Below are positions 57,355 through 58,947 of a DNA stretch of 64,000 nucleotides, piece by piece. The notes beneath the pieces were generated by a model. It made no database searches and was not told the DNA's origin. It saw only the letters and a program-made list of their open reading frames with translations. Positions within the stretch are counted from its first letter, which is position 1, and each line of letters starts with the position of its first letter. The stretch is from the NCBI GenBank assembly GCA_000002445.1, contig CH464491.1:1760001-1824000 (forward strand), read 5' to 3'. Both the position numbers and the translations under genes were made by a program. The DNA comes from Trypanosoma brucei (taxonomy: Eukaryota).

Positions 57355-58947
57355 TTAGCCGTTCTCACTGCTCACGGTTTGTCCTGGAGCTCCCGACGAT
57401 GGTGTCGTCAATGATGCGCGCATTAATGCTGACGGTGCAATTCCCAACTTCACATTCTGTGGAGAAACCATGGATGACGCCACGCTATCACTATTTTCGG
57501 TGATGCTGCTACTGCCACCCCTAACACCACATTCGCTGGCTCCACTCTCACTCATCTGAACACCCTCCACAACACCCTTTCGTAGGAACTCCCTTGCTTT
57601 TCGCAACAACTCCTTCTTGTCCATACCCTCCCAATCCCGCAGCGGCTTCGACAATGGGCTGTATTCCAACACGGGGAAAGAGAGCCCACCCAAGTGCGAA
57701 GCGTATATGCTCTTTCTACGGGGTTGTCTATGACTAATAACGACACGGTGGAATAGGTCGAGGCCTTTATGGCGGCTGTCTCGCCCGTATCGTGCGCTAT
57801 TATGTGTTTCCCGCGGTGGAAGGCTACCATGAACCTCCACAACACCGGTACGTGGTGGCGGTCCCTTAAGGGCACCACAGGCACCTGATGTTGATATTAA
57901 CTCACTCCCTTTTGGCAGAACAAGGGCTCCCTCCTCCTCCTCACGCGCCATGTCAATAAGATAGGATTTTAGGTCGAGTATGTGCTTGTCATCCACCTCC
58001 GAAGGGTATAAAGCATGTTCAAAATGCGCAGCCCGCAAAAGAGCTAAGCGAGCCGGCTCCCTCTTCTTCTTCTTTGGAATTAGGTCCCCCGAATCTCTCC
58101 GCAGCGCCGTGCATAAGGGCGCCTGTGCTGTTAACGGCGCGGCAGCTAGCATCTTGGCTCCACATTTGATATCCTCATAGGCGTTTTGCAATTCTTTCTG
58201 TGCGATACTACTCAACCTCTGCTGCTGCTCACTGTTGTAAAACGTTGCTCGATCGTATACTCGCTGCATCACATGTTCTTCAACATACTTCTTGAGCGAC
58301 TCCACATGAGTGGTATCCAACACAGCGAAGTCGGCGAGAGGAGACTTGTTGCAGTAGTCTCTCTGGATGGCAAGTAGGATGTTTTTTGGATGTTTAAAGC
58401 GACTCATAGCAGAGGCAGAGTACTGGTTAAAGACGTGTTGGTCAAGGTTGGGGTCAGGTGCCCACACATAACCCTCACAGGCCCCAATGTAACGTGTGTT
58501 ATGGCGTAGTTGATAAGCGCATTCGAGACTGGCCATAAAACACGAATCAAAGACCATCGCCTCAAATTTTCGCTTGCCGAGAATGGAGGCGAGCTCATGG
58601 CATTGCAACGCCAGTTTGTTCTCCTCTAATTCCAGGTAATCTCCCATCCCATGACCACCGTACACAAAATAACTCCGACCGGGGTCGTGGCAACGCTGTA
58701 GAAAGTCTTCAAGCATGTCCTGACGATAGCCAACAACATTTTCGTAGTTCTTCAATGTGTAGTCGCTCCCAGTGATACTTGCTTCAAAGCTCCCACCACT
58801 GGAGTTAAAGGCAAGCATGCAAAGATCGGTAACGCCCTTTACCTTCCTCATTTGCTGAAACTTCCAGAATGGCCACCCCGACACATTTTTAATGCAACTG
58901 CAGACCACGATGAGGCGGTTATTTGGTCGTGGGGCTCGGGACAACAT
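57355..58947 (-). CDS. PNT1: Clan CD, family C11 (clostripain-like) cysteine peptidase resembling PNT1, 530 aa
   Basis: ATG confirmed at 58945-58947. The His block is FVYGGHGMG with His at residue 99 (codon 58651-58653). The Cys block is MVFDSCFMAS with Cys at residue 136 (codon 58540-58542). The spacing and motifs are those of the clostripain His/Cys dyad. Residue numbers 99 and 136 match what I recall for T. brucei PNT1; that is from memory. Confidence 0.75.
   Translation of the reverse strand: MLSRAPRPNNRLIVVCSCIKNVSGWPFWKFQQMRKVKGVTDLCMLAFNSSGGSFEASITGSDYTLKNYENVVGYRQDMLEDFLQRCHDPGRSYFVYGGHGMGDYLELEENKLALQCHELASILGKRKFEAMVFDSCFMASLECAYQLRHNTRYIGACEGYVWAPDPNLDQHVFNQYSASAMSRFKHPKNILLAIQRDYCNKSPLADFAVLDTTHVESLKKYVEEHVMQRVYDRATFYNSEQQQRLSSIAQKELQNAYEDIKCGAKMLAAAPLTAQAPLCTALRRDSGDLIPKKKKREPARLALLRAAHFEHALYPSEVDDKHILDLKSYLIDMAREEEEGALVLPKGSELISTSGACGALKGPPPRTGVVEVHGSLPPRETHNSARYGRDSRHKGLDLFHRVVISHRQPRRKSIYASHLGGLSFPVLEYSPLSKPLRDWEGMDKKELLRKAREFLRKGVVEGVQMSESGASECGVRGGSSSITENSDSVASSMVSPQNVKLGIAPSALMRASLTTPSSGAPGQTVSSENG

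What the first reader, a model, noticed from the sequence alone, without database searches (positions are those of the whole stretch)
57355..58947. Clostripain-family (C11) cysteine peptidase with His99 and Cys136, resembling PNT1
The His-Gly (YGGHGMG) and Cys (FDSCFMA) blocks are the clan CD catalytic dyad, with the spacing expected for family C11. Counting from the confirmed ATG, the residues fall at His99 and Cys136. Those are the numbers I recall for T. brucei PNT1, a peptidase reported as essential for kinetoplast (kDNA) maintenance. If that recollection is right, it identifies both the gene and the organism. C11 peptidases are otherwise mostly bacterial, so this one in a eukaryote is a likely horizontal acquisition.
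Basis: partly seen in the sequence, partly recalled or inferred. Interest (0 to 1): 0.5.

Follow-up and report, generated by a model that had tools for sequence, protein, structure and literature searches.

The report
Trypanosoma brucei PNT1 peptidase gene

Summary
The ORF is real: 57355..58947 on the minus strand (strand not given in the finding), 530 aa. It starts at the first in-frame ATG after a stop. YGGHGMG and FDSCFMA place His99, Asp134 and Cys136 exactly as claimed. The protein is identical, residue for residue, to UniProt Q385B4 / EAN79617.1 'PUF nine target 1' of Trypanozoon. Grewal et al. 2016 name the same residues for PNT1 (Tb927.11.6550). They showed kinetoplast localisation, RNAi lethality with kinetoplast loss, and no rescue by C136S.

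I confirmed C11 membership independently. Pfam PF03415 matches. The AlphaFold2 model's best PDB matches are all C11 enzymes. A bridging profile aligns His99, Asp134 and Cys136 with the SHGxGW and DAC blocks of solved C11 peptidases. The published PUF9 element (three UGUA, the last in UUGUACC) lies about 445 nt after the stop codon.

Flanking DNA is 99.2-99.3% identical to T. b. gambiense and T. equiperdum chromosome 11. The organism is therefore T. brucei sensu lato, probably TREU927.

The horizontal-transfer inference is not established. The gene is as old as Bodo saltans and has native base composition. Its nearest named non-kinetoplastid relatives are Symbiodinium and Chromera proteins, not bacterial ones. 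Verdict: already known, low interest.

The parts
57355..58947 (-). PNT1 coding sequence (530 codons plus TAA stop), Tb927.11.6550 / old id Tb11.02.4400
   Evidence: ORF list. Exact-sequence identity to Q385B4/EAN79617.1 'PUF nine target 1'. Gene ids from PMC4850289 and PMC2727004.
58162..58920 (-). Caspase-like alpha/beta/alpha catalytic core of the C11 domain (residues ~10-262)
   Evidence: AF2 model with pLDDT mostly above 90 over this stretch. Pfam PF03415 covers residues 110-235. The top Foldseek PDB matches are all C11 enzymes. The A2 profile aligns full length to 6mzo_A.
58642..58662 (-). His block YGGHGMG (residues 96-102); catalytic His99 at 58653-58651
   Evidence: Invariant in 30 homologues. 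Aligns with the SHGTGW / SHGDGW / CHGMGW blocks of 6mzo_A, 6n9j_A and 6nag_A. Sits just after predicted strand 92-97, as PmC11 His133 does after beta5.
58531..58551 (-). Cys block FDSCFMA (residues 133-139); S1 Asp134 at 58548-58546 and catalytic Cys136 at 58542-58540
   Evidence: Aligns with FDACYMAS of PmC11 chain B. D134, C136 and M138 are invariant even in the wide alignment A2. C136S does not rescue RNAi (PMC4850289).
57541..58068 (-). C-terminal domain (residues ~294-469) with conserved YP..D....DL and VV...Y....GGLS motifs, interrupted by low-confidence loops
   Evidence: Invariant Y314 P315 D320 D325 L326 V402 V403 Y415 G421 S423. The GLS strand aligns with the GLSI motif of 6mzo_A. 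pLDDT profile.
57358..57540 (-). Poorly conserved, predicted disordered Ser-rich C-terminal tail (residues 470-530)
   Evidence: pLDDT below 50 for residues 470-530. No conservation in A1.
56905..56926 (-). PUF9-dependent cell-cycle element in the 3'UTR: UGUUGUAAUGUAACAUUGUACC, with three UGUA at +432, +437 and +445 after the stop, the last within UUGUACC
   Evidence: The sequence matches the mutagenesis primer and description in Archer et al. 2009 (PMC2727004): three UGUA within 20 nt about 425 nt after the stop, and G445A abolishes regulation. The motif count over the whole window is not above chance (6 observed against 6.6 expected). The evidence is therefore the published experiment, not enrichment.

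Best explanation
The ORF is the nuclear gene PNT1 (PUF nine target 1, Tb927.11.6550) of Trypanosoma brucei sensu lato. It lies inside a long single-strand polycistronic unit on chromosome 11. It encodes a divergent clan CD, family C11 (clostripain-family) cysteine peptidase. His99 and Cys136 sit at the C-terminal ends of two adjacent central beta-strands and form the catalytic dyad. Asp134, two residues before the Cys, is the S1 residue that in C11 enzymes selects Arg or Lys at P1. The loop after the His block is about 10 residues shorter than in bacterial C11 enzymes and lacks their autoprocessing site, so the enzyme probably acts without self-cleavage. The mRNA is stabilised in mid to late S phase by PUF9 through a UGUA cluster about 445 nt into the 3'UTR. 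[quoted passage not shown] Shown by others: localisation, RNAi and overexpression phenotypes, failure of C136S to rescue, and 3'UTR element function. Shown here: identity, family membership, residue alignment, fold and the short loop. Inferred: P1 specificity, activity without processing, and the nature of the substrates.
For: The sequence is identical to Q385B4/EAN79617.1/CBH17620.1/SCU70756.1. PMC4850289 reports His99/Cys136/Asp134, kinetoplast localisation, lethal RNAi with kinetoplast loss, no rescue by C136S, and no processed fragments. Pfam PF03415 matches above its cut-off. The Cys block aligns to PmC11 chain B at the position of Cys179. The AF2 model has pLDDT 81.8 and pTM 0.81, and its ten best PDB matches are all C11 peptidases (E 2e-11 to 1e-4), followed by legumain and CED-3. 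The bridging profile A2 aligns full length to 6mzo_A at E 1.4e-26, with the His and Cys blocks in register and an 11-residue insertion in 6mzo_A right after the His block. PmC11 has its dyad at the ends of beta5 and beta6, with Asp177 and the Lys147 cleavage site. H99, D134 and C136 are invariant in 30 homologues. The 3'UTR element matches PMC2727004. All 21 large ORFs in the window are on the minus strand and are ordinary eukaryotic genes. The flanks are 99.2-99.3% identical to T. b. gambiense and T. equiperdum chromosome 11.
Against: Peptidase activity has never been measured in vitro, because recombinant PNT1 was insoluble. Catalysis rests on the C136S genetic result. Plain sequence searches align only the Cys half to solved C11 structures. 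The His alignment needed an intermediate profile and a predicted, not solved, structure. Substrates are unknown, and the 2022 review still says so. The TREU927 genome itself was not compared at the DNA level.
Confidence: 0.97

Rival explanations
1. PNT1 is a catalytically inactive C11-fold protein (pseudo-peptidase or scaffold) at the kinetoplast, and Cys136 matters for folding, binding or redox rather than for proteolysis.
For: No in vitro activity has been shown. The family is very divergent from characterised C11 enzymes, at about 14-17% identity in structural alignments. At least one relative lacks the His: P0083 has GGG in place of GHG.
Against: His99, Asp134 and Cys136, together with the surrounding Gly residues, are invariant across 30 homologues from Trypanosoma to Bodo. 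That pattern is expected for a working active site. The conservative change C136S abolishes function at equal expression level.
Confidence: 0.05
2. The gene was acquired by kinetoplastids directly from a bacterium by horizontal transfer.
For: C11 is found widely in bacteria and archaea but in only a limited range of eukaryotes (PMC4850289). The fold and motifs are those of bacterial C11 enzymes.
Against: No bacterial sequence comes out as a close relative. The word-seeded search found only kinetoplastid-type proteins. In the exhaustive profile search the next-best group shares a PNT1-type EG[YFW]MW motif and includes Symbiodinium microadriaticum and Chromera velia proteins. A rough NJ tree separates this group plus PNT1 from canonical C11 with 100% bootstrap. 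The gene is present in Bodo saltans. Its GC and GC3 are native, and it lies within an ordinary polycistron. Any transfer would therefore be very old, and its donor is unknown. Most intermediate sequences are unnamed metagenomic proteins, and the tree is distance-based on saturated data, so the claim is weakened, not excluded.
Confidence: 0.2

Closest known systems
T. brucei PNT1 (Tb927.11.6550, UniProt Q385B4; Archer et al. 2009, Grewal et al. 2016)
   Same: Identical amino-acid sequence over all 530 residues. Same His99/Asp134/Cys136. Same 3'UTR PUF9 element.
   Different: Nothing at the protein level. The DNA strain is not pinned down: 99.2-99.3% identity to the gambiense and equiperdum assemblies, and one SNP agrees with TREU927 rather than Lister 427.
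PmC11 of Parabacteroides merdae (PDB 3UWS/4YEC) and other Bacteroidales C11 enzymes (6MZO, 6N9J, 6NAG, 5DYN, 5L20)
   Same: Caspase-like alpha/beta/alpha core plus a C-terminal domain. His after one central strand and D-x-C after the next. Conserved S1 Asp two residues before the Cys. GLS(I) strand in the C-terminal domain.
   Different: Only about 14-24% identity. The His-Cys loop is about 10 residues shorter and lacks the Lys147-type autoprocessing site. The N-terminal DNxL motif of canonical C11 is replaced. PNT1 has a PNT1-type EGY[VM]W motif after the Cys block, long disordered insertions (residues 266-293) and a disordered tail (residues 470-530). It is organellar, not secreted.
Clostripain of Hathewaya (Clostridium) histolytica (PDB 9CIP), type enzyme of MEROPS family C11
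   Same: Same fold (Foldseek E 4e-10) and same dyad and S1 Asp arrangement according to PMC4850289/PMC4850288.
   Different: Clostripain excises a nonapeptide (Arg181/Arg190) and needs Ca2+ for full activity. PNT1 shows no processing. Identity is about 11%.
Unnamed PNT1-like C11 proteins of alveolates (Symbiodinium microadriaticum OLQ08410.1; Chromera velia Cvel_4877)
   Same: They share the HG.G and D.C.M blocks, the EG[FW][MQ]W..D motif after the Cys block, and the C-terminal LLD and GLS motifs. They group with PNT1 in a rough tree.
   Different: About 25% identity in trimmed columns. The His-Cys loops are longer, at 48 and 54 residues. Function and localisation are unknown.

Membership tests
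MEROPS family C11 / Pfam PF03415 Peptidase_C11 (clostripain family) | Significant match to the family profile above the curated threshold | tested here: met
   PF03415 E 1.5e-10, 41.6 bits against a cut-off of 25.8, covering residues 110-235. The precomputed Pfam assignment for the homologues is also PF03415.
MEROPS family C11 / Pfam PF03415 Peptidase_C11 (clostripain family) | Catalytic Cys in a D-x-C block aligned with PmC11 Cys179, with the S1 Asp two residues before it | tested here: met
   FDSCFMAS aligns with FDACYMAS of 3uws_B/4yec_B. Chain-B residue 32 corresponds to Cys179 if the chain starts at Ala148. D134 and C136 are invariant.
MEROPS family C11 / Pfam PF03415 Peptidase_C11 (clostripain family) | Catalytic His in an H-G block aligned with the C11 catalytic His (PmC11 His133) | tested here: met
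   Not reached by direct phmmer or Pfam alignments. It is met through bridging profile A2, where yggHGsGd aligns with lwSHGTGW (6mzo_A), fwSHGDGW (6n9j_A) and igCHGMGW (6nag_A). The profile also matches chain A of PmC11, which carries His133, at E 0.004-0.006. Predicted strand 92-97 ends just before His99.
MEROPS family C11 / Pfam PF03415 Peptidase_C11 (clostripain family) | C11-type three-dimensional architecture (extended caspase-like sandwich plus C-terminal domain) | tested here: met
   Predicted model only. The ten best PDB matches are all C11 enzymes, ahead of the C13 and C14 families. The full-length profile alignment to 6mzo_A covers residues 12-352 of 369.
MEROPS family C11 / Pfam PF03415 Peptidase_C11 (clostripain family) | Measured endopeptidase activity with Arg/Lys P1 preference | not testable with these tools
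   Recombinant protein was insoluble. Only the genetic C136S result exists (PMC4850289).
MEROPS family C11 / Pfam PF03415 Peptidase_C11 (clostripain family) | Activation by autoprocessing in the loop after the catalytic His (typical of PmC11 and clostripain, but not a requirement for membership) | tested here: not met
   PNT1 lacks the roughly 11-residue loop segment that is inserted in 6mzo_A after the His block. Grewal et al. saw no processed fragments and found an Ala at the aligned site. This is a variation within the family, already reported.
T. brucei PNT1 orthologue group (PUF nine target 1) | Sequence identity with Q385B4 and the same locus | tested here: met
   Exact-sequence look-up. 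Synteny and 99.2-99.3% DNA identity with T. b. gambiense FN554974.1 and T. equiperdum CZPT02001525.1.
T. brucei PNT1 orthologue group (PUF nine target 1) | 3'UTR with the clustered UGUA / UUGUACC PUF9 element | tested here: met
   TGTTGTAATGTAACATTGTACC at 56926-56905 on the minus strand, at +432 to +451 after the stop. It matches the primer sequence and description in PMC2727004.

The most novel reading that the evidence does not exclude
Kinetoplastid PNT1 is not an isolated, kinetoplastid-specific offshoot of bacterial C11. It may instead belong to a wider, so far undescribed eukaryotic C11 subfamily that also occurs in myzozoan alveolates (Symbiodinium, Chromera) and in many unnamed environmental protists. 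This subfamily is marked by an EG[YFW]MW..D motif after the catalytic Cys. That would point to an old eukaryotic origin, or to eukaryote-to-eukaryote transfer, rather than direct bacterial acquisition. A side observation: Leptomonas does carry PNT1, contrary to the 2016 statement.
Probability: 0.45. Interest if true: 0.3.

Novelty: already known. Interest (0 to 1): 0.1.

Why it matters
PNT1 matters biologically. It is an essential peptidase specific to kinetoplast maintenance, it has no human orthologue, and it is a possible drug target. All of that was published in 2009 and 2016. The one open thread is evolutionary origin, where alveolate PNT1-like proteins complicate the simple story that the gene came from a bacterium. 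The real open question, what PNT1 cleaves, cannot be addressed from sequence.

Tried and rejected
(1) The + strand reading of the given coordinates has no ORF. The gene is on the minus strand.

(2) Direct phmmer of PNT1, and the kinetoplastid-only profile A1, against PDB sequences aligned only the Cys half. His99 could not be tested that way, so I built a bridging alignment (A2) from exhaustive-search hits.

(3) The first NJ tree was invalid. The Kimura correction gave NaN distances and an artefactual ladder tree with spurious 100% supports. It was discarded and redone with a Poisson correction.

(4) A word-seeded search with the alveolate-type alignment A3, meant to obtain organism names, returned only 3 proteins. 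That was a dead end.

(5) UUGUACC occurs in the window no more often than chance (6 observed against 6.6 expected). The functional claim for the 3'UTR site therefore rests on the published mutagenesis alone.

(6) I looked for compositional signs of recent horizontal transfer and found none.

(7) A literature search for newer work on PNT1 substrates found none. A 2026 proteomics paper reports only that PNT1 abundance increases in kDNA-negative cells.

Full report
OBSERVATION. The coordinates 57355..58947 hold a 530-codon ORF on the minus strand. The + strand translation of the same stretch is full of stops. The finding did not state the strand. The ATG at 58947-58945 is the first in-frame ATG after a stop 10 codons upstream. 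Residues 10-32, which precede the next Met (M33), are conserved across kinetoplastid homologues, so the start is sound. YGGHGMG is residues 96-102 and FDSCFMA is residues 133-139. This gives His99 at 58653-58651, Asp134 at 58548-58546 and Cys136 at 58542-58540.

IDENTITY. An exact-sequence look-up finds this protein, residue for residue, under several accessions:
- UniRef Q385B4_TRYB2 and EAN79617.1 / XP_011779884.1, 'PUF nine target 1'
- CBH17620.1, T. b. gambiense DAL972
- SCU70756.1, T. equiperdum

Grewal et al. 2016 (PMC4850289) describe PNT1 = Tb927.11.6550 = Q385B4 with a His99/Cys136 dyad and Asp134 in the putative S1 site. Archer et al. 2009 (PMC2727004) named the gene under its old id Tb11.02.4400.

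ORGANISM. Two assemblies carrying the identical protein were fetched. Window 47355-64000 is 99.19% identical to T. b. gambiense chromosome 11 (FN554974.1) and 99.30% identical to T. equiperdum OVI (CZPT02001525.1), with the same gene order. The window is therefore Trypanozoon chromosome 11, but neither of those two assemblies. Archer et al. note a G in TREU927, against a T in Lister 427, 9 nt downstream of the mutated G in the 3'UTR. The window has G. This fits TREU927 but does not prove it. All 21 large ORFs in the window lie on the minus strand. They include an AAA+/bromodomain protein, L24e, LRR, START, kinesin, MIF4G, PDS5, SERINC, EF-hand and FHA proteins, and two tandem S21e genes. This is a typical trypanosome polycistronic unit.

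INDEPENDENT TEST OF FAMILY AND CATALYTIC RESIDUES.
- Pfam PF03415 Peptidase_C11 matches above its cut-off, but only over residues 110-235.
- phmmer, and a profile of 30 kinetoplastid-type homologues, align only the Cys block to PmC11 chain B: FDSCFMAS against FDACYMAS, at the position of Cys179. His99 was therefore untested at that point.
- I used two further routes for His99.
  - An AlphaFold2 model built on the 30-sequence alignment has pLDDT 81.8 and pTM 0.81. Strand 92-97 ends just before His99 and strand 130-134 ends just before Cys136. This is the same arrangement as PmC11 His133 and Cys179 at the ends of beta5 and beta6.
  - The model's ten best PDB matches are all C11 peptidases: 6N9J, 6NAG, 6MZO, clostripain 9CIP, 3UWS, 5DYN and 5L20. 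Legumain and CED-3 follow.
- An exhaustive profile search of 1.84 billion representatives supplied intermediates, some with full Pfam C11 matches.
- A profile of PNT1 plus these intermediates (A2) aligns full length to the solved zymogen 6mzo_A at E 1.4e-26. 'yggHGsGd' lies over 'lwSHGTGW' and 'ilfDsClMa' over 'ILFDACYMS'. The alignments to 6n9j_A and 6nag_A agree.
- H99, D134 and C136 are invariant in the 30 close homologues. D134 and C136 are invariant, and H99 nearly so, in the wide alignment.

Membership in C11 is therefore met on every feature that can be tested in silico. Enzymatic activity cannot be tested here and has not been measured in vitro by anyone.

MECHANISM. Grewal et al. showed the following:
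- Localisation at or near the kinetoplast antipodal sites.
- Lethal RNAi with kinetoplast loss.
- Viability of a kDNA-independent line after depletion.
- Rescue by recoded wild type but not by C136S.
- No processed fragments of the protein.

From the alignments I add that the stretch between His and Cys is 37 residues, against 46 in PmC11 and 47 in 6mzo_A. The missing 11 residues fall directly after the His block, which is where PmC11 carries its Lys147 autoprocessing loop. This fits an enzyme that does not need self-cleavage. Asp134 corresponds to PmC11 Asp177, so an Arg/Lys P1 preference is inferred.

Regulation is also already known. The 3'UTR carries TGTTGTAATGTAACATTGTACC at 56926-56905 on the minus strand, with UGUA at +432, +437 and +445. 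This is the element whose G-to-A mutation abolished PUF9-dependent cell-cycle regulation. My count puts that G at +446, against the published 'G445', a one-base difference in numbering. Substrates remain unknown. A 2026 proteomics paper reports more PNT1 in kDNA-negative cells.

HORIZONTAL TRANSFER. This is the only part of the interpretation that is not supported as stated.
- Grewal et al. propose lateral transfer for the chromerid/coccidian/chlorophyte C11 clade. They describe the kinetoplastid clade only as atypical and divergent.
- The gene occurs in Bodo saltans and throughout the trypanosomatids.
- Its GC (0.508) and GC3 (0.537) lie within one standard deviation of 21 neighbours.
- In the exhaustive search, the hits after the PNT1 clade share a PNT1-type EG[YFW]MW..D motif after the Cys block. 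The only two with organism names are from Symbiodinium microadriaticum and Chromera velia.
- A rough NJ tree (55 sequences, 301 columns, 200 bootstraps) separates PNT1 plus this group from canonical and short C11 sequences with 100% support.
- Caveats: most sequences are unnamed, the distances are saturated, the method is simple, and the tree is unrooted.

The fair statement is that a very old bacterial origin of eukaryotic C11 genes is plausible, but direct bacterium-to-kinetoplastid transfer is not shown, and the nearest named relatives are eukaryotic.

VERDICT. The finding is a correct identification of a known, experimentally characterised gene. Novelty: already known. Interest is low. The only mildly new points are the alveolate PNT1-like relatives and the presence of PNT1 in Leptomonas.

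Noticed in passing
window 49473-50063 and 50335-50919 (minus strand); L002 18022-18612: There are two tandem ribosomal protein S21e genes, with ORFs of 196 and 194 aa. The T. b. gambiense locus also has two, but the T. equiperdum OVI assembly shows only one at this position. This is either copy-number polymorphism or assembly collapse.
   Followed up: partly
homologues P0015 and P0023: Leptomonas pyrrhocoris and Leptomonas seymouri both have annotated 'PUF nine target 1' proteins (E about 1e-143 to 1e-145), and so does Angomonas deanei. Grewal et al. 2016 stated that Leptomonas lacks a PNT1 orthologue. That statement now looks like an artefact of the data available in 2016.
   Followed up: partly
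proteins P0098 (Symbiodinium microadriaticum OLQ08410.1) and P0071 (Chromera velia Cvel_4877): These are PNT1-like C11 proteins outside the kinetoplastids. They share the EG[FW][MQ]W..D motif and the C-terminal LLD and GLS motifs. They group with PNT1 rather than with canonical C11 in a rough tree. Cvel_4877 is not the Chromera entry (Cvel_15101) used in the 2016 phylogeny.
   Followed up: partly
protein P0083: This C11-family relative of unknown origin has Gly in place of the catalytic His (YVGGGFGW) while keeping D-C-C-L-M. It may be a pseudo-peptidase.
   Followed up: no
window 59298-59259 and 59199-59190 (minus-strand orientation), upstream of PNT1: A compound microsatellite, (CA)11 followed by (TA)8, and a G10 run lie 250-350 nt upstream of the PNT1 start codon in the intergenic region. 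A (TG)n-like run also lies in the downstream intergenic region at about 56402-56380.
   Followed up: no
window 34001-36000 and 38001-40000: Two AT-rich stretches (GC 0.389 and 0.406, against about 0.50 elsewhere). The first lies in a gap of nearly 4 kb (32958-36846) with no ORF of 180 aa or more.
   Followed up: no
window 866-4681 (minus strand): A 1271-aa ORF combines an AAA ATPase domain with a weak bromodomain match (E 6e-4, just below the Pfam cut-off). This is an ATAD2/Yta7-like architecture.
   Followed up: no
window 57355-58947, cluster member P0003: A 498-aa version of the protein in Logan assemblies, and the 485-aa T. congolense model (P0004), start at the equivalent of Met33. The conserved residues 10-32, which form the first beta-strand of the fold, show that these are truncated gene models rather than alternative starts.
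   Followed up: partly
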